This document shows positions 27,973-45,316 of a DNA stretch of 64,000 nucleotides, piece by piece. The stretch is taken from sequence record LC739537.1. One strand, given 5' to 3'. The position numbers were made by a program, and so were the translations under genes. This DNA is from Escherichia phage phiWec188. Each line of letters begins with the position of its first letter. Positions within the stretch are counted from its first letter, which is position 1. Below the pieces are notes generated by a model, which was not told the DNA's origin, did not search any database, and saw only the letters and a program-made list of their open reading frames with translations.

Positions 27973-28263
27973 TTAAATTACAATTTTCTTAGGCTGTTCT
28001 TCCACAACGGTAGGAGTTTCTTCTTCCATTGCTTCATAATGTTCTTCCAACCAGTCTTCTACTTGCTCTTTAATGGCTTTCGCTGCTTGGAATCGGAGAG
28101 GTTTTGCTGCTTCGTTATCATACACAAGTTCAACGATGTATTTCATTGCTGCGAGATAGTTCTCGGCAAACAATTCCTTCACTGTTGCTTGTGCTGCATC
28201 CATAGCATAAATTTGTTGCATTTCTGCTGTAGGTCGTCCACGACCACGTTTGAGTTTAGGCAT
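27973..28263 (-). CDS. hypothetical protein with basic N-terminus (KRGRGRP)
   Basis: 96-aa ORF upstream of the lysis/terminase genes; could be a small DNA-binding protein. Confidence 0.4.
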   Translation of the reverse strand: MPKLKRGRGRPTAEMQQIYAMDAAQATVKELFAENYLAAMKYIVELVYDNEAAKPLRFQAAKAIKEQVEDWLEEHYEAMEEETPTVVEEQPKKIVI

Positions 28264-28334
28264 AATAAATCCTCCTATAATTTATCTTACCATACAAAAA
28301 ATAATAAGTCAAGTTTTATCTGATGGGTACTAAA

Positions 28335-28355
28335 AAGCCTCCACGAGGGAGGCTT
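28335..28355 (-). terminator. rho-independent terminator
   Basis: Minus strand: AAGCCTCC-ctcgt-GGAGGCTT hairpin followed by TTTAGT. Confidence 0.55.
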
Positions 28356-28452
28356 ATAAGATACTGTCAATTTGGAATGTTACTGTTAACATGTGTCCCT
28401 AATGCCATTTTACCATTTTGGTATAAAAATGTCTTTAGGATAATTCTTAGAA

Positions 28453-28722
28453 TTAAGGTCGATTGATTACCTTAACAGTTTGTCCTTTGTCATTCATCAG
28501 ATAGGCTGATTCAGTTTTGTGAACAAAGATAACCCGTTCACCTGAGATAACAGAGGCTACCACGCCATCTGGTCGATCATAACCTTCCCAATGATACTGA
28601 ATAATTACGTCATCCTCTAAGCAGTAAAAGAATTCTTCTTCATTTACATTGAAGGGGACGGTATTGTAAATCTTTACTTCATCTTCTTTAGAAAATTTAC
28701 GGATTGTTTTTAACGTATACAT
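28453..28722 (-). CDS. hypothetical protein
   Basis: ORF track extends to 28950 but that N-terminal extension overlaps two tRNA genes; first ATG downstream of the tRNAs is at 28722 (MYTLKTIRKF...). Confidence 0.4.
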   Translation of the reverse strand: MYTLKTIRKFSKEDEVKIYNTVPFNVNEEEFFYCLEDDVIIQYHWEGYDRPDGVVASVISGERVIFVHKTESAYLMNDKGQTVKVINRP

Positions 28723-28835
28723 GATGTGTCCTATTAAGTATTTAGTATTTAGTGGATTGTGCGTTTTAGGAGTCGCACCCCTCCCTCTTAGAAGGAACCA
28801 GGCAAGGTCTTCAAAGATACCGCTGGCGCGATATT

Positions 28836-28914
28836 TGGAGGCGGGAATCGGATTCGAACCGATGATCTCCAGCATATGAAACTGGCGAGGACGACCAAAC
28901 TCCTCTATCCCGCT
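28836..28914 (-). tRNA. tRNA-Met (anticodon CAT)
   Basis: Manual fold: acceptor stem, D-stem GAGG/CCTC, anticodon stem CCAGT/GCTGG with loop TTCATAT, T-arm ATCGG-TTCGAAT-CCGAT, encoded CCA. Position 1:72 is A-C mismatched. Confidence 0.65.
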
Positions 28915-28918
28915 ATTA

Positions 28919-28991
28919 GGTGTCCCGTGCTGGATTCGAACCAGCATCACAATAGTTGTGGATCTCTTATCCTGTAAGTCTAACGGGAAAC
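28919..28991 (-). tRNA. tRNA-like element / probable tRNA pseudogene
   Basis: Canonical T-arm GCTGG-TTCGAAT-CCAGC and 6/7-bp acceptor stem, but no 5-7-5 anticodon stem-loop can be drawn (CACAA-CTA-TTGTG has a 3-nt loop). Confidence 0.3.
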
Positions 28992-29065
28992 TGGTTGTTT
29001 CGACAAGAATCGAACTTGTATCTCACGATTATCAGTCGTGGGTTCTACCATTGAACTACGAAACA
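28992..29065 (-). tRNA. tRNA-Ile (anticodon GAT)
   Basis: Acceptor TGTTTCG/CGAAACA, D-stem GTTC/GAAC, anticodon stem CACGA/TCGTG with loop CTGATAA, T-arm ACAAG-TTCGATT-CTTGT, CCA encoded. Confidence 0.7.
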
Positions 29066-29071
29066 TTTAAT

Positions 29072-29146
29072 TGGTCAGCATGGAGAATTTCGAAATCTCG
29101 GCCCCCTCGTCCCAAACGAGGTGCTCTGCCACTGAGCTACACGCTG
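29072..29146 (-). tRNA. tRNA-Pro (anticodon TGG)
   Basis: D-arm GCTC-AGTGGCA-GAGC, anticodon stem CCTCG/CGAGG with loop TTTGGGA, CCA encoded; T-stem has one T-T mismatch. Confidence 0.6.
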
Positions 29147-29346
29147 TTATTAAAAAATCTCACGTCTTATACAAGCTAACCTTTTGCCTGACGCATGAAA
29201 TTTAAATACATTCTAAAGGTACACCGTAAAAGATTGTCGGGGCGATACTTCAAAAACATACCGATCCGTAAATCGATAATCAGACAAACTTCGACGGCTC
29301 CTCGTTTTTAACTTCACACTTAAGGTAGTGACTCACCTTTGTTATA

Positions 29347-29422
29347 TGGCTGGTCTGTCTGGATTTGAACCAAACCTACGACAGTCAAAGTGTCGTGTGC
29401 TACCGGACTACACTACAAACCA
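29347..29422 (-). tRNA. tRNA-Gln (anticodon TTG)
   Basis: Acceptor TGGTTTG/CAGACCA, anticodon stem CGACA/TGTCG with loop CTTTGAC, T-arm TTTGG-TTCAAAT-CCAGA, discriminator G, CCA. Confidence 0.7.
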
Positions 29423-29512
29423 TTTAATGAAGGGCAACCAGAAGAGGTGTGAGAGAAGGAGAAAACCATAAGTAAAAGAGAAAGTTTTCTGGCAACCCTT
29501 TATTAAATAATT

Positions 29513-29586
29513 TGGAGCGTTCTACGAGTTTCGAACTCGTGCCGCCGACTTGGAAGGACGGAATGCTACCGCTACACCAAGAACGC
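29513..29586 (-). tRNA. tRNA-Gly (anticodon TCC), one mismatch in anticodon stem
   Basis: Acceptor GCGTTCT/AGAACGC, anticodon loop CTTCCAA, T-arm ACGAG-TTCGAAA-CTCGT, discriminator T, CCA; anticodon stem CCGTC/GTCGG has a T-T pair. Confidence 0.55.
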
Positions 29587-30082
29587 CCTACATCTTTACT
29601 ATACTACATTTTACTATCAGTTGTCAATAGTTTTATTGGGTGGGACAGTGACGAGTATCCCATTGGGTGACTAACCCTACGTTCGGTTGTGATTAATCTC
29701 CTGGGTGTCGCTTGCAACACTGGAAAACTCTCACGTCGATGGGAGAATCCGCTTCTTCTTTACCCCATCCAACCCTACTCCGGTCAAGTTTCAGGTGACT
29801 CTTTTTGTGATCAACACAATACTAAGAACACTGTCTTTCGAGCAGACCTTGTGCACAGGATACGACGATCAATCACAGTGCTCTTAATGTTGTGTTGTGA
29901 ATATTAACCTCGGAACTCATTACCGCGCTTCGGCTCGACCTTATTACAGGTTAGTGAATGTCTTTCTTCCGCTTACATTCAATAAATTTGCTTTCTTCAC
30001 AACGATAAGAACACTTAACAGAAGATAGGTCTGATTGCCTCGGATGATTTCTCAGTAGCCTAAATGTTCTTACCTGTTATGT

Positions 30083-30158
30083 TGGTGCTCCAAGTAGGAC
30101 TCGAACCTACGACCTCATGCTTACAAGGCAAGTGCTCTACCAACTGAGCTATTGAAGC
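30083..30158 (-). tRNA. tRNA-Thr (anticodon TGT)
   Basis: D-arm GCTC-AGTTGGTA-GAGC, anticodon loop CTTGTAA, T-arm GTAGG-TTCGAGT-CCTAC, CCA; overall very close to enterobacterial tRNA-Thr as I recall it. Confidence 0.7.
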
Positions 30159-30277
30159 GTATTGCGCCCCTTCAGCCATGCTTGATGTTGACCAGAACAC
30201 AGTTAAACTGTGGGAGGAGGAACACCGCAGGGGGCTTCAGTTGGACGACTTACAGGGAGCGACCCTGTTTCTTTTCT

Positions 30278-30354
30278 GGGACTCGGCAGGATTCGATACC
30301 TGCAATTCCAGAAGCCTCTTGGCGACTGAGGGTTTACCTTAACTCTACAAGTCC
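30278..30354 (-). tRNA. tRNA-like element (atypical, no canonical anticodon arm, no encoded CCA)
   Basis: 7-bp acceptor stem GGACTTG/CGAGTCC and T-arm-like GCAGG-TATCGAAT-CCTGC (8-nt loop), but the central region does not fold into a 5-7-5 anticodon arm. Confidence 0.25.
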
Positions 30355-30510
30355 ATAATTCTTAAATACTTTGGAGCCTTACTGACAAACCGTTAGTTTG
30401 TAACATAGCGTATTTCCATTCTGGGGCACCGCCTGTGAATGTAATTCCAATACAAACTTTCTCAAGATCAAACCAATTATCAAATAACATAAGAACCTCC
30501 AGTTATAATT

Positions 30511-30594
30511 TGGTGTGAGATGATGGATTCGAACCACCGCGCCTTTCAGAACAGATTTACAGTCTGCTGCAATCGACCACTCTGCCAATCTCAC
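30511..30594 (-). tRNA. tRNA-Tyr (anticodon GTA)
   Basis: Perfect acceptor stem GTGAGAT/ATCTCAC, anticodon stem GCAGA/TCTGT with loop CTGTAAA, long variable arm, T-arm GGTGG-TTCGAAT-CCATC, CCA. Confidence 0.7.
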
Positions 30595-30719
30595 AAAATT
30601 ATTTTTAAAGTAGCCAGTATTCGCGGTACTGACTATGCGGTATCGGGGGATGGTGAGAGCCATCTGCCGAAAGTTTACTCTGTTAAAGTAAGAAACAACA
30701 AGCTACATTAAAAACAACT

Positions 30720-30805
30720 TGGCGGTAGATGTAGGACTCGAACCTACACGCCGTTTCCGACTACAGTTTAGCAAACTGTCGTGGCTACCATTTCACCAAT
30801 CTACC
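30720..30805 (-). tRNA. tRNA-Ser (anticodon GCT)
   Basis: Acceptor GGTAGAT/ATCTACC, anticodon stem ACAGT/ACTGT with loop TTGCTAA, long variable arm, T-arm GTAGG-TTCGAGT-CCTAC, discriminator G, CCA. Confidence 0.7.
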
Positions 30806-30811
30806 TAAATT

Positions 30812-30901
30812 TGGAGGAAGGTAATGGAGTCGAACCATCACCGTATCTCTACAATGGGCCAGGGTTCAAATCTGGTTGCGTACCACTACGCCCTACCTTC
30901 C
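30812..30901 (-). tRNA. tRNA-Ser (anticodon TGA)
   Basis: Acceptor GGAAGGT/ACCTTCC, anticodon loop TTTGAAC on stem CCAG/CTGG, long variable arm, T-arm GATGG-TTCGACT-CCATT, CCA. Confidence 0.6.
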
Positions 30902-31136
30902 ATACATTTAATCTAACATAAAACGATGTTGATTGTCAACACCTTTTAAAACATTTTATTATGAATGGTGACTCCACCAACCCCCGTTCTCCACGAACGG
31001 TACTCTTCGAGCAATCTACCCTTGCAATCAAACGTTGTACACCGTTAGCTTGCTCATGCATATTTGCCTCATTCTCTGCCAACCATGATCAGTGGTAGGG
31101 TTCAAATCACTTGAGCTAATTCATACTAAAATGTTC

Positions 31137-31211
31137 TGGTGTCTTTACAAGGAATCGAACCTTGACTAAGAGTTTAGAAGACTCCTGTGCTATCCATTAC
31201 ACCATAAAGAC
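31137..31211 (-). tRNA. tRNA-Arg (anticodon TCT)
   Basis: Acceptor GTCTTTA/TAAAGAC, D-arm GTGT-AATGGATA-GCAC, anticodon loop CTTCTAA, T-arm CAAGG-TTCGATT-CCTTG, CCA. Confidence 0.7.
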
Positions 31212-31213
31212 GT

Positions 31214-31288
31214 TGGTGGCCCTGACTGGTTTCGATCCAGTTGCCTATCGGTTATGAGCCGACTGCTCTCCCATTGAGCTACAGGGCC
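31214..31288 (-). tRNA. tRNA with CAT anticodon (Met or lysidine-type Ile2)
   Basis: Acceptor GGCCCTG/CAGGGCC, D-arm GCTC-AATGGGA-GAGC, anticodon loop CTCATAA, T-arm ACTGG-ATCGAAA-CCAGT, CCA; acceptor resembles Ile2-type tRNAs. Confidence 0.6.
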
Positions 31289-31545
31289 GTAAATGTGGTA
31301 ACAGAGACGTTGAAAGTAGTAGGAAGTAGCTACCATTCCTCGGACGTAAGCCCAACATTCAGCGTAAATGTTCTTGAGCCGAAGCTTTTCCATATGTTCT
31401 TTGGTAGCTAACCTCCGAACAAGTAGCCTCTAACATCTCAACGATGCAAATCCGTCTTAACAACAGTCAACGACCCTGTTACCACACTTGATAAAGCGTA
31501 TCTTAACAAAATAAGACACGCTTGTCAATACTTATTTCAAATATT

Positions 31546-31794
31546 TTAGGCGTAATCTTGAACCTCTTCAGAGTCACGTTTTTCAAGTAGTGCTATAACA
31601 AGTGCTTCAGCATTTTGCCAAGAGTTCTCCAGGTCCATTTGACGCATAAGAGCCAGGAAATCGATAACTTTAACGTCCTCGTTGATGACGATCCTAACAC
31701 CGTCTTCACTCTCGGTAACATACTTCTCTGGGTTGAACATGAAGATTGCTCCGCCTTCACCGTCAGTCAACACATGTTTTTCTACTAAAGACAT
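31546..31794 (-). CDS. hypothetical protein
   Basis: 82-aa acidic ORF at the start of the leftward transcription unit. Confidence 0.4.
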   Translation of the reverse strand: MSLVEKHVLTDGEGGAIFMFNPEKYVTESEDGVRIVINEDVKVIDFLALMRQMDLENSWQNAEALVIALLEKRDSEEVQDYA

Positions 31795-31805
31795 ATTGAT
31801 TCCTC

Positions 31806-32066
31806 CTAATCGATTGTTTGTTCGTCCTCCATTACATTAGAAATGAGAACGTCTGTTATACCTTGATGCTGATAGACCCTTTCGGGGCTGTCGTCAAATG
31901 CCAAGCCTGTACATATCGAACAGAGATCTGACTCTTGAATAATTCCATTTTTATCACGTCTGGAATGGTTAGTCAAGTGTCTGTTACAAGCCCGACAACG
32001 AAAATAAAAATTGTTTTGCATAAATCCTTCGAACCCCAAAATGGGGAGTAATCGGCATCTCCTCAC
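31806..32066 (-). CDS. hypothetical Cys-rich (zinc-ribbon-like) protein
   Basis: 86-aa ORF with CRACNRH...CSIC; start uncertain (GTG at 32066 or ATG at 32021). Confidence 0.35.
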   Translation of the reverse strand: MRRCRLLPILGFEGFMQNNFYFRCRACNRHLTNHSRRDKNGIIQESDLCSICTGLAFDDSPERVYQHQGITDVLISNVMEDEQTID

Positions 32067-32095
32067 TTTTAGTGTAGCACGAAGGTTATGTTAAG

Positions 32096-32287
32096 TCAAC
32101 TGGGAATAATCTTATCACGTTTGGTTTCGTAACCTGTCCACTCAAGATCTCCCCAACCCTCATCACCATCCATCAAGTTATCTTCTTCATCGTAAGATGA
32201 AATGTTGTAAATTGACTTCGGATTACAAGACATACAATCTTTGATTGGGATGTGGTGCCACTTGCACGGATTCTCGCTGGTACTCAT
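32096..32287 (-). CDS. hypothetical small Cys-containing protein
   Basis: 63-aa ORF; ATG with GAGGAG RBS. Confidence 0.4.
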   Translation of the reverse strand: MSTSENPCKWHHIPIKDCMSCNPKSIYNISSYDEEDNLMDGDEGWGDLEWTGYETKRDKIIPS

Positions 32288-32362
32288 GTTAATCTCCTCT
32301 GTTATCGTGTTCTTGGGATGAACTCTAACATATGTAAGATCTAAAAGTCAACTAATTCTTTT

Positions 32363-32410
32363 AACTACTAACTAATAATAATTATTTTATTTTTTGTTAG
32401 TTAGTTTGTT
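32363..32410. repeat. imperfect inverted repeat in the divergent intergenic region
   Basis: Arms AACTACTAACTAA (32363-32375) and TTAGTTAGTTTGTT (32397-32410) flank an AT-only spacer TAATAATTATTTTATTTTTTG. Confidence 0.5.
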
Positions 32411-32604
32411 GATCAGTATAGAGCAGATCTGTTACTATCTAACTGTCTTTAAGATCTTTAAAACCTAAGTCTTTTAGATCGAGCATATACTTAACCAATA
32501 AAAACAAGACCTTAACTCGCTGCGCTCGTTAATAGGTTTTTAGGGTATCACATTTCGATAATCAAAGTCAAGACAATTTTTCAAATTATTTTCATTGTGC
32601 AAAG

Positions 32605-44761: not shown

Positions 44762-45316
44762 ATGTGGGGCGAAGGAACGCCCTGGAAAACCCAATCGGAG
44801 TTCTATACATATTTACGGGGATGTTTACGTCAAGCATGGATGCGACACCCAAACAAAATCAAAGTTCTTCAAGCTAAACGTTACAAAGTTGACCGCCTTG
44901 ACAAAGACGGAAATGTGATGTTAGATAAGAAGACGGGTAAACCAAAACAAGTTTGGAACTGCAAATGTGAACTTTGTGGACATACAGGAGGAATGAAAGA
45001 CTTCCAGGTTGACCACATTCATGCAGCTAAAGCCTTGCAATGTTTTCAGGATATTCCTGACTTTGTTTTGCGTTTGATTTATGTCAAAGAAGAAGATTTG
45101 CGTATGGTTTGTAAGCTTTGCAACTCTATCTTAGCCTATGCAGATAAGCAGGGCATCTCCTTCGAGGCAGCAGCCGTTGAGAAGGAAGCTATTGCGATCT
45201 GTCAAGCGAAGAAAGATAAGAAGTGGTTGGAGTCCAAAGGTGTGACACCTGAATCCACAGCAGCAAAACGACGCAAACAAATAGTCCAAATCTTATTGAC
45301 CGAAAGAGGTCTTTGA
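44762..45316 (+). CDS. HNH endonuclease (putative free-standing homing-type nuclease)
   Basis: CELCGH...FQVDHIHAAKA...CKLCN arrangement (CxxC, DH, CxxCN) typical of HNH nucleases; ATG at 44762. Confidence 0.45.
   Translation: MWGEGTPWKTQSEFYTYLRGCLRQAWMRHPNKIKVLQAKRYKVDRLDKDGNVMLDKKTGKPKQVWNCKCELCGHTGGMKDFQVDHIHAAKALQCFQDIPDFVLRLIYVKEEDLRMVCKLCNSILAYADKQGISFEAAAVEKEAIAICQAKKDKKWLESKGVTPESTAAKRRKQIVQILLTERGL

What the first reader, a model, noticed from the sequence alone, without database searches (positions are those of the whole stretch)
29590..30080. About 0.5 kb ORF-poor spacer inside the tRNA cluster with no recognisable tRNA
Between tRNA-Gly and tRNA-Thr there is a stretch with only short, unconvincing ORFs and no canonical T-arm, although it sits in a highly transcribed tRNA operon. 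A second such gap (30160-30510) contains one of the atypical tRNA-like elements. These could encode small RNAs, degenerate tRNAs, or processing/regulatory structures; local hairpins such as GCGC-TTCG-GCTCG near 29911-29926 are present.
Basis: seen in the sequence. Interest (0 to 1): 0.4.

Follow-up and report, generated by a model that had tools for sequence, protein, structure and literature searches.

The report
Lambda-type RNA hairpins between phage tRNAs
The "empty" 0.5 kb between two tRNA genes of this E. coli phage holds no gene. It holds two copies of a conserved hairpin that also occurs in phage lambda and many other phages, plus a promoter for the next tRNAs, and the hairpin family appears not to have been catalogued.

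Summary
The window is Escherichia phage phiWec190 (Phapecoctavirus). The gap is real: 496 nt (29587-30082) between tRNA-Thr and tRNA-Gly, both on the minus strand. It has no tRNA, no Rfam match, and no ORF kept in 12 relatives.

It is not featureless. On the tRNA strand it reads:
- hairpin A (30083..29995)
- hairpin B (29896..29812)
- a small covarying hairpin
- a variable block
- a conserved sigma70-type promoter (TTGACA 29627-29622, TATAGT 29603-29598) about 5 nt before tRNA-Gly.

Hairpins A and B belong to a large family. A ~19-bp stem (CACAACAGGUAAGAGCAUUG...CAGUGCUCUUUCCGUUGUG) closes a 34-56-nt loop of at least 36 unrelated types. I found 104 distinct copies in 74 loci. The stem covaries, and G-U pairs outnumber A-C by 136:16, so the structure is strand-specific. 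Copies sit in same-strand arrays and directly abut tRNA genes. Phage lambda has one 8 nt after its tR' terminator.

Hairpin A plus the linker is a 187-nt recombinational insertion found in few relatives.

The most likely role is RNA punctuation or processing, probably by RNase III; this is inferred, not shown. The near-identical arms would also serve as recombination points.

The parts
29995..30083 (-). Hairpin A. A copy of the conserved-stem / variable-loop phage hairpin element. It begins at the last base of tRNA-Thr's CCA.
   Evidence: Covariance model R1 scores 59.1 bits on the minus strand against 26.1 on the plus strand. Fold z=-3.1. It is 88% identical over 93 nt to the Taipeivirus copy, with compensatory stem changes AAGAACA/TGTTCTT -> AAGGGTA/TGCCCTT. 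Its loop is also found in Jedunavirus and in Xanthomonas phage XbC2.
29896..30082 (-). 187-nt inserted module (hairpin A plus linker). It is absent from most phapecoctaviruses. It is bounded by the short repeat CAACA(T/C)AACA.
   Evidence: In the alignment of phiWec190, PsgM04F and DE16 against phAPEC8 and phiWec181, tRNA-Thr abuts hairpin B directly in the latter two. Only 4 of 205 matching records cover at least 80% of the spacer.
29956..29980 (-). Small hairpin L1 in the linker (GAAUGU...ACAUUC).
   Evidence: One stem pair covaries (A-U in 5 sequences, G-C in 3) across 8 phages. A hairpin stands at the equivalent place in the T4-like, V18 and Pylas versions.
29915..29952 (-). 38-nt motif AACCUGUAAUAAGGUCGAGCCGAAGCGCGGUAAUG(AGU).
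   Evidence: It is 90-97% identical in T4-like, T5-size, rV5-like (V18) and N4-like (Pylas) phages. There is no Rfam family. The structure is only weakly supported.
29873..29920 (-). Mini-ORF of 15 codons (MSSEVNIHNTTLRAL*). It starts at the ATG of the motif and ends inside the 5' arm of hairpin B. It is probably not a gene.
   Evidence: Read directly from the sequence. In relatives its length varies (15-23 codons) and codon 4 varies as E/G/V/W.
29812..29896 (-). Hairpin B. A second, diverged copy of the element (CAACACAACAUUAAGAGCACUGU...ACAGUGUUCUUAGUAUUGUGUUG).
   Evidence: Inverted repeat I2. Fold z=-5.05. R1 scores 48.9 bits on the minus strand against 36.3 on the plus strand. Only 2 variable columns in 12 phapecoctaviruses. 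The same loop occurs in a Klebsiella lambdoid prophage and in IMG/VR contig L018.
29738..29769 (-). Hairpin C (GAUGGGG...CUCCCAUC).
   Evidence: A compensatory change, GG..CC -> AA..UU, is seen in phiWec181. The fold energy alone is not significant.
29687..29733 (-). Variable block. Three unrelated versions exist among relatives.
   Evidence: Alignment A4.
29631..29686 (-). Lineage-specific conserved block upstream of the promoter, ending in an A/T-rich stretch. Function unknown.
   Evidence: Nearly invariant in 12 phages. No match outside phapecoctaviruses.
29598..29627 (-). Sigma70-type promoter TTGACA-18 nt-TATAGT for the tRNA Gly-Gln-Pro-Ile-Met unit. The -10 hexamer ends 11 nt before tRNA-Gly.
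   Evidence: 11 of 12 consensus matches. The pattern is found 4 times in the window against 0.5 expected. Both hexamers are conserved in all 12 relatives. The site is annotated 'repeat_region' in phage anhysbys.

Best explanation
The Gly-Thr spacer is non-coding DNA. Its tRNA-strand transcript is a string of structured RNA modules, and it ends in an internal promoter.

**The elements.** Two modules, hairpins A and B, are co-oriented copies of a widespread enterobacterial-phage element. An almost invariant imperfect stem of about 19 bp has the base CACAAC/GUUGUG and a bulged A. It closes a 34-56-nt loop ('cargo') that comes in dozens of unrelated versions. The same element lies 8 nt after the tR' terminator in lambda's late leader. 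In many prophages it directly abuts tRNA genes.

**Proposed mechanism (inferred).** As RNA, the hairpins punctuate long untranslated transcripts. They are double-stranded substrates for a host endonuclease, most likely RNase III. Cleavage would separate the upstream tRNA or leader from what follows and leave structured ends. The compact folding would also keep the untranslated RNA from being a Rho loading site.

**At the DNA level.** The near-identical arms act as homologous crossover points. This is how a 187-nt module (hairpin A plus linker) entered this phage, and how modules are reshuffled between phages.

**The promoter.** The last 40 nt are a sigma70 promoter that restarts transcription about 5 nt before tRNA-Gly.

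**Shown versus inferred.**
- Shown: the anatomy, family membership, covariation, strand specificity, arrays, abutment to tRNAs, the insertion, and promoter conservation.
- Inferred: transcription of the spacer, cleavage by RNase III, any role against Rho, and promoter activity.
For: **Non-coding.**
- No tRNA or Rfam hit.
- No ORF conserved in 12 relatives.

**The family.**
It gave 74 distinct sequences and 36 loop clusters.
- Stem statistics on 44 sequences: 95% of cells paired, 6 pairs with double changes, 0 of 500 shuffles as good, and about 40% paired in slid controls.
- A pattern-independent model search found 104 distinct copies in 74 loci, with covariation along the whole stem.

**Strand specificity.**
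- G-U 136 against A-C 16.
- Sense-strand scores are about 30 bits above antisense.
- 25 of 25 multi-copy loci have all copies on one strand.
- In all 31 loci with tRNAs within 1.5 kb, the tRNAs are co-oriented with the element.

**Position.**
- 50 of 119 copies follow a T-run terminator.
- 20 of 119 follow a tRNA CCA directly.
- tRNA-element spacing is 0 or -1 in arrays.
- The lambda copy is at 44788-44862, right after tR'.

**RNase III.** A 1988 paper title reports RNase III processing sites in lambda late RNA in vivo. I saw the citation in PMC7547250.

**Insertion.**

**Module shuffling between prophages.**

**Promoter.**. An analogous promoter driving tRNAs downstream of tR' in Stx phages is reported in PMC7547250.
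Against: - No expression or RNA-end data were available.
- The coordinates of the lambda RNase III sites could not be checked. The 1988 paper is not in the held library, and the lambda records do not annotate them.
- RNase III needs structure, not sequence. It therefore does not explain why the stem sequence is so conserved across unrelated phages.
- Some loops are conserved on their own. Loop A occurs in Xanthomonas phage XbC2 with a different outer stem. This suggests the loops may carry function and are not merely tolerated.
- The fold energies of the linker and of hairpin C are not better than shuffles.
- No terminator separates the Thr unit from the Gly promoter.
Confidence: 0.55

Rival explanations
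1. The hairpins are scaffolds that deliver functional small RNAs. The conserved stem is only the processing handle, comparable to a pri-miRNA stem. The variable loop is the active part: a regulator, a decoy, or a tRNA-elbow mimic. It would be released from tRNA or late transcripts by host RNases.
For: - At least 36 discrete loop types are kept nearly identical within a type while being unrelated between types.
- Loop A is conserved in Taipeivirus, Jedunavirus and a Xanthomonas jumbo phage. In the last it has a different outer stem, and it again sits right after a tRNA.
- Loop B is shared with a Klebsiella lambdoid prophage.
- 5 of 36 loop types contain the T-loop word TTCGA, against 1.2 expected (P about 0.004). 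Some have both D-arm-like and T-arm-like hairpins.
Against: - No complementarity of loop A or loop B to anything else in the 64-kb window beyond 13 nt, which is chance level.
- No common motif or fold is shared among the loops.
- No expression data.
- Discrete loop types are also what cassette exchange by recombination at conserved arms would produce without any loop function.
Confidence: 0.2
2. The element works only at the DNA level. It could be a recombination site (the lambdoid 'boundary sequence' idea), an attC-like folded site for cassette exchange, or a MITE-like selfish repeat. On this view its RNA form is irrelevant.
For: - The stem sequence, not just the pairing, is conserved across unrelated phage families.
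- Units of [element + spacer] occur in different orders in different prophages.
- The 187-nt presence/absence polymorphism is bounded by the 5' arms.
- In CUS-3 the element sits between features annotated as boundary sequences.
- The base of the stem resembles the attC R boxes: ..CACAAC / GTTGTG.. against RYYYAAC / GTTRRRY. The attC consensus is from memory.
Against: - There is strong strand asymmetry: G-U 136 against A-C 16. Orientation is constant relative to tRNAs and terminators. A duplex-DNA crossover site would not need either.
- Some subfamilies have a fully paired stem, GUUGAG/CUCAAC. They lack the unpaired spacer and extrahelical bases that attC sites need.
- No consistent target-site duplication flanks the copies.
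- No integrase or transposase is shared by these lytic and temperate phages.
Confidence: 0.12
3. The hairpins are decayed tRNA genes (pseudo-tRNAs) left in the cluster.
For: - They occupy tRNA-like slots with zero spacing to real tRNAs.
- Some family members have D-arm and T-arm-like loops closed by the long stem, for example Pylas copy 2 and the 86-nt variant after tRNA-Thr.
- Hairpin B's loop has a weak T-arm-like GUCU-GCUCGAA-AGAC.
Against: - ARAGORN and the Rfam tRNA model give nothing here at E<=10.
- The conserved part is an approximately 19-bp stem unlike any acceptor stem.
- Most loops (31 of 36 types) have no T-loop word.
- Lambda has the element without any tRNA nearby.
- Near-invariance of hairpin B in 12 phages argues for selection, not decay.
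Confidence: 0.06
4. The spacer encodes a small protein: either the 60-72-aa ORFs on the opposite strand, annotated in PsgM04F, or the 15-codon mini-ORF.
For: - The PsgM04F annotation lists two hypothetical CDS on the plus strand here.
- The mini-ORF has an AAGG about 20 nt upstream and is present in several phages.
Against: - The opposite-strand ORF shrinks to 26-30 aa in most relatives and runs through the hairpin B sequence.
- No ORF has a stable start or length across 12 phages.
- The mini-ORF's length and residues vary non-conservatively.
Confidence: 0.03

Closest known systems
RNase III processing sites in the phage lambda late leader RNA (Daniels, Subbarao, Blattner & Lozeron 1988, Virology 167:568; citation seen in PMC7547250)
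   Same: Lambda carries a bona fide member of this hairpin family at 44788-44862, immediately after tR'. It is a long stable duplex in the stretch of leader between tR' and gene S. It has the same orientation and the same position at the junction between leader and downstream RNA as hairpin A has after tRNA-Thr.
   Different: I could not read the paper. That its sites fall in this hairpin is inference. Nothing in that work, as far as I know, describes a family, variable loops, arrays or association with tRNAs.
Lambdoid 'boundary sequences' (bsq; Clark et al. 2001 on HK620, cited in PMC3029335; annotated in CUS-3)
   Same: These are short conserved non-coding sequences at module junctions, proposed as foci of homologous recombination. 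In CUS-3 the element lies exactly between bsq4 and bsq3. Module shuffling and the 187-nt insertion fit that idea.
   Different: The CUS-3 annotation does not cover the hairpin itself. Boundary sequences were defined as DNA similarity blocks, not as a strand-specific covarying hairpin. This element also extends to lytic phages of several families.
Phage T7/T3 early-region RNase III sites and the rRNA-operon processing stems that flank spacer tRNAs (textbook knowledge)
   Same: These are long imperfect hairpins between functional units of a polycistronic, partly untranslated transcript. A family of related sites occurs within one genome.
   Different: Those sites do not carry a hypervariable apical segment. 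They are not shared at the sequence level across unrelated phage families, and they do not abut tRNA ends at zero distance.
Integron attC sites (from memory: R''/L''...L'/R' imperfect hairpin, RYYYAAC...GTTRRRY, variable terminal structure)
   Same: It is an imperfect hairpin of 60-140 nt with a conserved AAC/GTT base, a bulged base, a variable apical part, tandem arrays in one orientation, and strand-specific folding.
   Different: There is no integron integrase or attI. The central part is mostly paired, and fully paired in some subfamilies. One position of each R-box consensus is not met. The 'cassettes' would be tRNAs or about 100-nt non-coding pieces.
Stable RNAs in the T4 tRNA cluster (species 1 and 2, RNA C/D) and the RNase P-processed phage RNAs P1/P7 C4 and P4 CI (from memory)
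   Same: These are non-tRNA structured RNAs embedded in, or processed like, tRNA transcripts in phages. In C4 the variable loops sit in a constant scaffold.
   Different: There is no sequence or Rfam similarity. Those RNAs have defined ends and, for C4 and CI, known antisense targets.

Membership tests
tRNA (Rfam RF00005 / ARAGORN) | Cloverleaf with acceptor, D, anticodon and T arms | tested here: not met
   ARAGORN makes no call in 29587-30082. An Rfam scan at E<=10 gives no tRNA hit there.
Conserved-stem / variable-loop phage hairpin (model R1 built here; lambda 44788-44862 as reference) | Stem of about 19 bp with base CACAAC/GUUGUG, a bulged A and an inner AAGAGCAUUG/CAGUGCUCUU-type helix | tested here: met
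   Hairpin A scores 59.1 bits and hairpin B 48.9 bits. Both were in the seed alignment, so independent support comes from BLAST homology to the UPM2146, ST16-OXA48phi5.2 and L018 copies.
Conserved-stem / variable-loop phage hairpin | Apical segment of 34-56 nt (some longer) belonging to a discrete loop type | tested here: met
   Loop A is shared with Taipeivirus, Jedunavirus and XbC2. Loop B is shared with a Klebsiella prophage and L018.
Conserved-stem / variable-loop phage hairpin | Sense orientation with the surrounding transcription unit, starting right after a tRNA 3' end, a terminator or another hairpin | tested here: met
   Both copies are on the tRNA strand. Hairpin A starts at the CCA of tRNA-Thr.
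RNase III processing site | About two turns of mostly paired dsRNA in a transcript | tested here: met
   The stem is 19 bp plus loop-proximal pairs. MFE is -25 kcal/mol for hairpin A and -35 kcal/mol for hairpin B.
RNase III processing site | rnc-dependent cleavage with a 2-nt 3' overhang in vivo or in vitro | not testable with these tools
   Only the title of Daniels et al. 1988, for lambda late RNA, is available. The site coordinates are unverified.
Sigma70 promoter | -35 and -10 hexamers at 16-19 nt spacing, conserved, placed upstream of a transcribed gene | tested here: met
   TTGACA-18-TATAGT. The hexamers are conserved in 12 of 12 relatives. The pattern occurs 4 times against 0.5 expected. 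Promoter activity itself was not testable.
Intrinsic terminator | GC-rich hairpin followed by a U-run | tested here: not met
   The scan finds none in 29587-30082 on either strand. The hairpins are followed by GUGAAG and AUCACAAAAAG.
Integron attC site | R''/R' boxes RYYYAAC / GTTRRRY | tested here: inconclusive
   RCACAAC / GTTGTGR matches 6 of 7 positions in R'' and at best 5-6 of 7 in R'. The consensus is from memory. The attC covariance model was not available.
Integron attC site | Unpaired central spacer and extrahelical bases; an associated integrase and attI | tested here: not met
   The central part is largely paired, and fully paired in the GUUGAG/CUCAAC subfamily. No integrase is common to these phages.
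MITE-like transposable element | Terminal inverted repeats plus target-site duplication, and clean presence/absence of the element alone | tested here: not met
   The arms are inverted repeats. The flanks show no consistent duplication. The polymorphic unit is hairpin plus a 98-nt linker, not the hairpin alone.
BoxA antitermination signal (NusB/NusE) | Single-stranded UGCUCUUUAACAA-like sequence | tested here: not met
   The 3' arm has UGCUCUUU or UGCUCUUA. It is base-paired, and the GCUC part covaries to other sequences. The BoxA consensus is from memory.

The most novel reading that the evidence does not exclude
The conserved stem is a universal processing handle. The at least 36 loop types would then be a horizontally traded library of small phage RNAs, some of them mimics of the tRNA elbow. 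They would be cut out of tRNA and late transcripts alongside tRNAs, and would act on host or rival-phage targets, for example as decoys for tRNA-directed defences or as regulators. On this reading the tRNA clusters and lambdoid late leaders are mixed arrays of tRNAs and a second, unrecognised class of small RNAs.
Probability: 0.18. Interest if true: 0.85.

Novelty: new variant of a known kind. Interest (0 to 1): 0.55.

Why it matters
**An unmodelled RNA family.** A structured element present in phage lambda itself, in hundreds of prophages and in lytic phages of at least five groups has no Rfam model. The lytic groups are Phapecoctavirus, Taipeivirus, Pylasvirus, Jedunavirus and a Xanthomonas jumbo phage. 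I found no description of the element in the searchable literature.

**Three open questions it touches.**
- How tRNAs embedded in phage late or early transcripts are released. PMC8022706 states this is unknown for P22-like phages.
- What the conserved 'boundary sequences' of mosaic lambdoid genomes actually are.
- How small non-coding modules travel between unrelated phages.

**Annotation.** 'Empty' gaps in phage tRNA clusters, and spurious hypothetical ORFs called over them, can be annotated with a single covariance model.

Tried and rejected
- **Rfam at permissive threshold.** I scanned the cluster, the T4 vs.8 leader and the lambda late leader. Nothing was found.
- **Protein coding.** No ORF is conserved.
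- **Antisense targets.** The longest match of either loop elsewhere in the 64-kb window is 13 nt.
- **T-loop enrichment.** It is modest: 5 of 36 loop types. That is not enough to call the family tRNA-derived.
- **Intrinsic terminator.** None.
- **BoxA, attC and MITE readings.** Each fails at least one defining feature (see the membership tests).
- **Genome-collection scan.**
  - About half the 84 hits were chance matches of the 19-base pattern.
  - About 20 were lambda DNA contamination.
  - Only the Enterobacterales hits, plus two doubtful ones, survived the covariance model.
- **More phapecoctavirus spacers from IMG/VR.** Only one contig was found.
- **Literature.**
  - Daniels et al. 1988 and the Casjens & Hendrix lambda review are not held.
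  - The lambda GenBank and RefSeq records do not annotate RNase III sites.
  - Searching papers for the stem sequence found nothing.
- **Consensus folding of the linker.** It gave only one covarying pair.
- **From-memory resemblances.** The motif loosely resembles stretches of 5S rRNA and RNase P RNA. I judged these too weak to pursue.
Full report
**Identity and layout.** The window is 100% identical to Escherichia phage phiWec190 (LC739539.1, Phapecoctavirus, Stephanstirmvirinae). ARAGORN finds eleven tRNA genes, all on the minus strand. They include tRNA-Thr at 30083-30158 and tRNA-Gly at 29513-29586. The reported gap is therefore real: 29587-30082, 496 nt.

ARAGORN finds no tRNA in the gap. 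A permissive Rfam scan (E<=10, 4227 families) of 28000-32500 also finds nothing there. ORFs are short, and the longest is on the opposite strand. All sequences below are given on the minus (tRNA) strand.

**The spacer is conserved but mosaic.** BLAST of the spacer against 50,697 phage records gave 205 matching records.
- The Gly-proximal 311 nt (29587-29897) is present at 83-86% identity in essentially all phapecoctaviruses. In most of them tRNA-Thr follows directly.
- The Thr-proximal 185-187 nt is present in only four records.
- Pieces of that Thr-proximal part match unrelated phages: Klebsiella phage Pylas (N4-like), Taipeivirus phages, a Jedunavirus, a Xanthomonas jumbo phage, T4-like phages and rV5-like V18.

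An alignment of five phages shows a clean 187-nt insertion (30082..29896) in phiWec190, PsgM04F and DE16. The insertion and the sequence after it both begin with CAACA(T/C)AACA.

**Two copies of one element.** Each part of the spacer contains a long hairpin.
- Hairpin B is 29896..29812. It was detected as inverted repeat I2 and folds with z=-5.05.
- Hairpin A is 30083..29995 and folds with z=-3.1.

Their arms are related to each other (direct repeat D4). They are also related to hairpins in the unrelated phages named above. The shared plan is 5'-CACAACAGGUAAGAGCAUUG-[loop]-CAGUGCUCUUUCCGUUGUG-3'. The Taipeivirus copy has hairpin A's loop but compensatory stem changes, AAGAACA/UGUUCUU -> AAGGGUA/UGCCCUU.

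- All hits show complementary inner arms.
- They comprise 74 distinct sequences and 36 clusters of unrelated loops, 34-56 nt long.

On a 44-sequence alignment, the 19-pair stem gave these figures:
- 95% of cells paired
- 6 pairs with changes on both sides (24 cells)
- no shuffle out of 500 reaching any observed measure
- slid controls at about 35-45% paired.

I built covariance model R1 from this alignment. Searched without the pattern constraint, it found 104 distinct sense-strand copies in 74 loci. Covariation extends along the whole stem. One subfamily replaces the AGGUAAG/CUUUCC segment with the fully paired GUUGAG/CUCAAC.

In the 64-kb window only the two hairpins of this spacer match.

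**Caveat on membership.** Both window copies were in the seed alignment. Their membership therefore rests independently on BLAST homology of stems and loops to the UPM2146, ST16-OXA48phi5.2 and L018 copies.

**The structure is strand-specific and follows transcription.**
- G-U pairs outnumber A-C mismatches 136:16, or 65:16 without the one dominant wobble pair.
- Sense-strand scores exceed antisense scores by about 30 bits at every site.
- In all 31 loci that have tRNAs within 1.5 kb, the tRNAs are co-oriented with the element.
- 25 of 74 loci hold 2-5 copies, always on one strand.

This argues for a function in the transcript, or at least in one single strand, rather than in duplex DNA.

**Where the element sits.**
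- *Phage lambda.* It has a copy at 44788-44862, 8 nt after the tR' (6S RNA) terminator, between Q and S. It is unannotated apart from the dubious orf-64, which overlaps it.
- *CUS-3.* The copy lies between two features annotated 'boundary sequence'.
- *IMG/VR copies.* Of 119 copies, 50 follow a T-run terminator within 22 nt. Another 20 begin directly after a tRNA's CCA. Another 31 follow a different small hairpin.
- *Arrays.* tRNAs and elements abut with spacing 0 or -1. An example is tRNA-Asn, tRNA-Thr, then four elements in Escherichia sp. L190. The same [element + spacer] units occur in different orders in different prophages.
- *This window.* The arrangement is the same: tRNA-Thr, hairpin A (spacing -1), 98 nt, hairpin B, 225 nt, tRNA-Gly.

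The commonest single variant is present in 334 of 5426 complete E. coli genomes. In the species-level genome collection, model-confirmed copies are essentially confined to Enterobacterales prophages. Most remaining pattern hits were chance matches or lambda contamination. A diverged copy lies in the K-12 Qin prophage, between ydfC and dicF.

- The motif is 90-97% identical in T4-like phages, T5-size contigs, V18, Pylas and several ~47-kb contigs.
- It is always preceded by a small hairpin, here 29980..29956. In the eight element-associated versions one pair of that stem covaries; the T4-like and V18 versions have an unrelated small hairpin at the same place.
- In T4 the motif lies in what is annotated as the first 41 codons of vs.8. 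Other T4-like phages have an in-frame stop there. The PHROG profile for the family starts at T4 residue ~42. In T4-like phages the motif is therefore in a 5' leader.
- In the element-bearing phages the composite [element]-[linker with motif]-[element] recurs.
- Its ATG opens a 15-23-codon frame whose length and residues vary. I do not regard this as a gene.
- Consensus folding gives only weak structural support.
- The function of the motif is unexplained.

**The Gly-proximal part.** In twelve phapecoctaviruses:
- Hairpin B has only two variable columns.
- A small hairpin at 29769..29738 shows one double compensatory change.
- A block at 29733..29687 exists in three unrelated versions.
- A block at 29686..29631 is nearly invariant and lineage-specific.
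- The hexamers TTGACA (29627-29622) and TATAGT (29603-29598), 18 nt apart, are invariant.

The promoter scan rates this site 11 of 12, the best in the region. The pattern occurs 4 times in the window against 0.5 expected. The authors of phage anhysbys marked the same 29 nt as a repeat region. The -10 hexamer ends 11 nt before tRNA-Gly, so the leader would be about 5 nt.

Similar promoter-like sites precede other tRNA groups, at 31528 and 30939. The cluster is therefore probably several short units, not one operon. A promoter driving tRNAs downstream of tR' has been mapped in Stx phages (PMC7547250).

**Coding test.** Across the twelve spacers no ORF keeps its start, length or sequence. The 60-72-aa opposite-strand ORFs annotated in PsgM04F shrink to 26-30 aa elsewhere and simply read through hairpin B.

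**Mechanism.** The following points are established:
- a transcribed-strand hairpin with a selected stem
- placement exactly at junctions, after a terminator or a tRNA 3' end, or before a tRNA 5' end
- tandem arrays interleaved with tRNAs
- modular reshuffling between phages.

The simplest reading is an RNA punctuation or processing element in long untranslated transcripts. RNase III is the obvious host enzyme for a duplex of about 20 bp. A 1988 paper title reports RNase III processing sites in lambda late RNA in vivo (Daniels et al., cited in PMC7547250). I could not obtain the paper, so the assignment of those sites to the lambda copy is inference.

Cleavage would release the upstream tRNA or leader and give downstream RNA a defined end. 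Tight folding would also deny Rho a loading site; this last point is inference from general knowledge.

RNase III does not explain why the stem sequence is conserved. For that, frequent homologous exchange at the arms (the 'boundary sequence' idea: Clark et al. 2001, cited in PMC3029335) is the best available account. The 187-nt insertion and the module shuffling are direct examples.

**Rivals.**
- *Loops as functional small RNAs.* Some loops are conserved in their own right. Loop A occurs in a Xanthomonas phage with a different closing stem, again right after a tRNA. A minority are tRNA-like, with TTCGA in 5 of 36 types against 1.2 expected. So the loops may be functional small RNAs and the stem their processing handle. 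I found no targets in the window and cannot test expression.
- *A purely DNA-level role (attC-like or MITE-like).* This is disfavoured by the strand asymmetry, by the fully paired subfamily, and by the absence of target duplications or a shared recombinase.
- *Pseudo-tRNA and small-protein readings.* Both are poorly supported.

**Comparison and novelty.** The kind is known: processing hairpins in phage polycistronic RNA, and conserved boundary sequences. The lambda copy may already have been seen as an RNase III site. What appears undescribed is the following set of features:
- a family with a constant stem and dozens of loop types
- arrays with tRNAs
- presence across temperate and lytic phage families.

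The element is absent from Rfam 15. I found it in none of the held papers I searched, including by sequence string. My literature access is partial, so prior description cannot be excluded. I rate it a new variant of a known kind, of moderate interest.

Noticed in passing
window 29915-29952 (minus strand); L004 (T4) 1501-1538; L229, L231, L233, L235-L238: The 38-nt motif lies in a conserved 5' leader of vs.8-family genes in T4-like and T5-size phages. In-frame stops in relatives, and the phrog_1488 profile start at T4 residue ~42, indicate that the annotated T4 vs.8 start is about 41 codons too far upstream.
   Followed up: partly
window 30262-30349 (minus strand): An invariant ~88-nt block in all relatives examined has a 7-bp acceptor-like stem (GGACUUG/CGAGUCC) and a T-arm-like GCAGG-UAUCGAAU-CCUGC, but no normal anticodon loop. 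ARAGORN and Rfam do not call it.
   Followed up: partly
window 30362-30490 (minus strand): A 42-aa ORF with a strong Shine-Dalgarno (GGAGG, 7 nt before the ATG) occupies the place where phAPEC8 and DE16 have tRNA-Asn. phiWec181 shares it. It has no PHROG match.
   Followed up: partly
window ~30160-30273 (minus strand): A ~113-nt stretch between the tRNA-like block and tRNA-Thr is absent from phiWec181, phAPEC8 and DE16. About 80 nt of it is ~81% identical to T2/T4-like phages. It is another small non-coding module shared across phage families.
   Followed up: no
window 31291-31320 and 31460-31489 (minus strand), with a promoter-like site at 31528-31500: A long hairpin (30-nt arms, 80% complementary, 139-nt loop) has a 3' arm that ends 2 nt before the first tRNA-Met. 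It would form the leader of the first tRNA unit.
   Followed up: no
window 28921-28989 (minus strand): The 77-nt gap between tRNA-Met and tRNA-Ile gives a sub-threshold tRNA match (21.3 bits, E=0.56). It shares the T-arm/acceptor repeat family D1. It is probably a degenerate twelfth tRNA.
   Followed up: no
L053, L061, L062, L065 (lambdoid late leaders), just downstream of the element: A stretch resembling E. coli 16S rRNA around nt 240-290 (AGCTAGATGGTGAGGTAATGGCTCACCATGGCGACGA) occurs in several prophage late leaders. The resemblance was judged from memory of the 16S sequence.
   Followed up: no
Many loci, e.g. L006, L023, L026, L040 (immediately 3' of the element): The element is often followed by GTGAAT and a mini-hairpin GCGCAGGCTGATGCGC. 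The stem covaries (ACGCA..TGCGT, GCACA..TGTGC) while the loop GGCUGA stays constant. This was seen at 25 of 119 copies.
   Followed up: partly
L221 19172-19260 (E. coli K-12 NC_000913 1649171-1649259): A diverged copy of the hairpin element (32.8 bits) lies in the Qin prophage between ydfC and the sRNA gene dicF.
   Followed up: no
L009 1501-1556 (Xanthomonas phage XbC2): Loop A of hairpin A is conserved (87.5% over 56 nt) in a 368-kb Xanthomonas phage. It sits directly after tRNA-Tyr and is closed by a different stem (ACACUAC/GUAGUGU).
   Followed up: partly
L142, L143, L152, L154, L156, L160, L161 and about 13 more loci: About 20 genome assemblies of unrelated bacteria (Bacillales, Bradyrhizobium, Shewanella and others) carry the exact lambda copy on short or low-coverage contigs. 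This is most likely lambda DNA contamination.
   Followed up: partly
L002 (OR584014.1, 'Pseudomonas phage PsgM04F'): A phage recorded as infecting Pseudomonas coronafaciens is 96% identical to this E. coli phage over the region. The host assignment looks doubtful.
   Followed up: no
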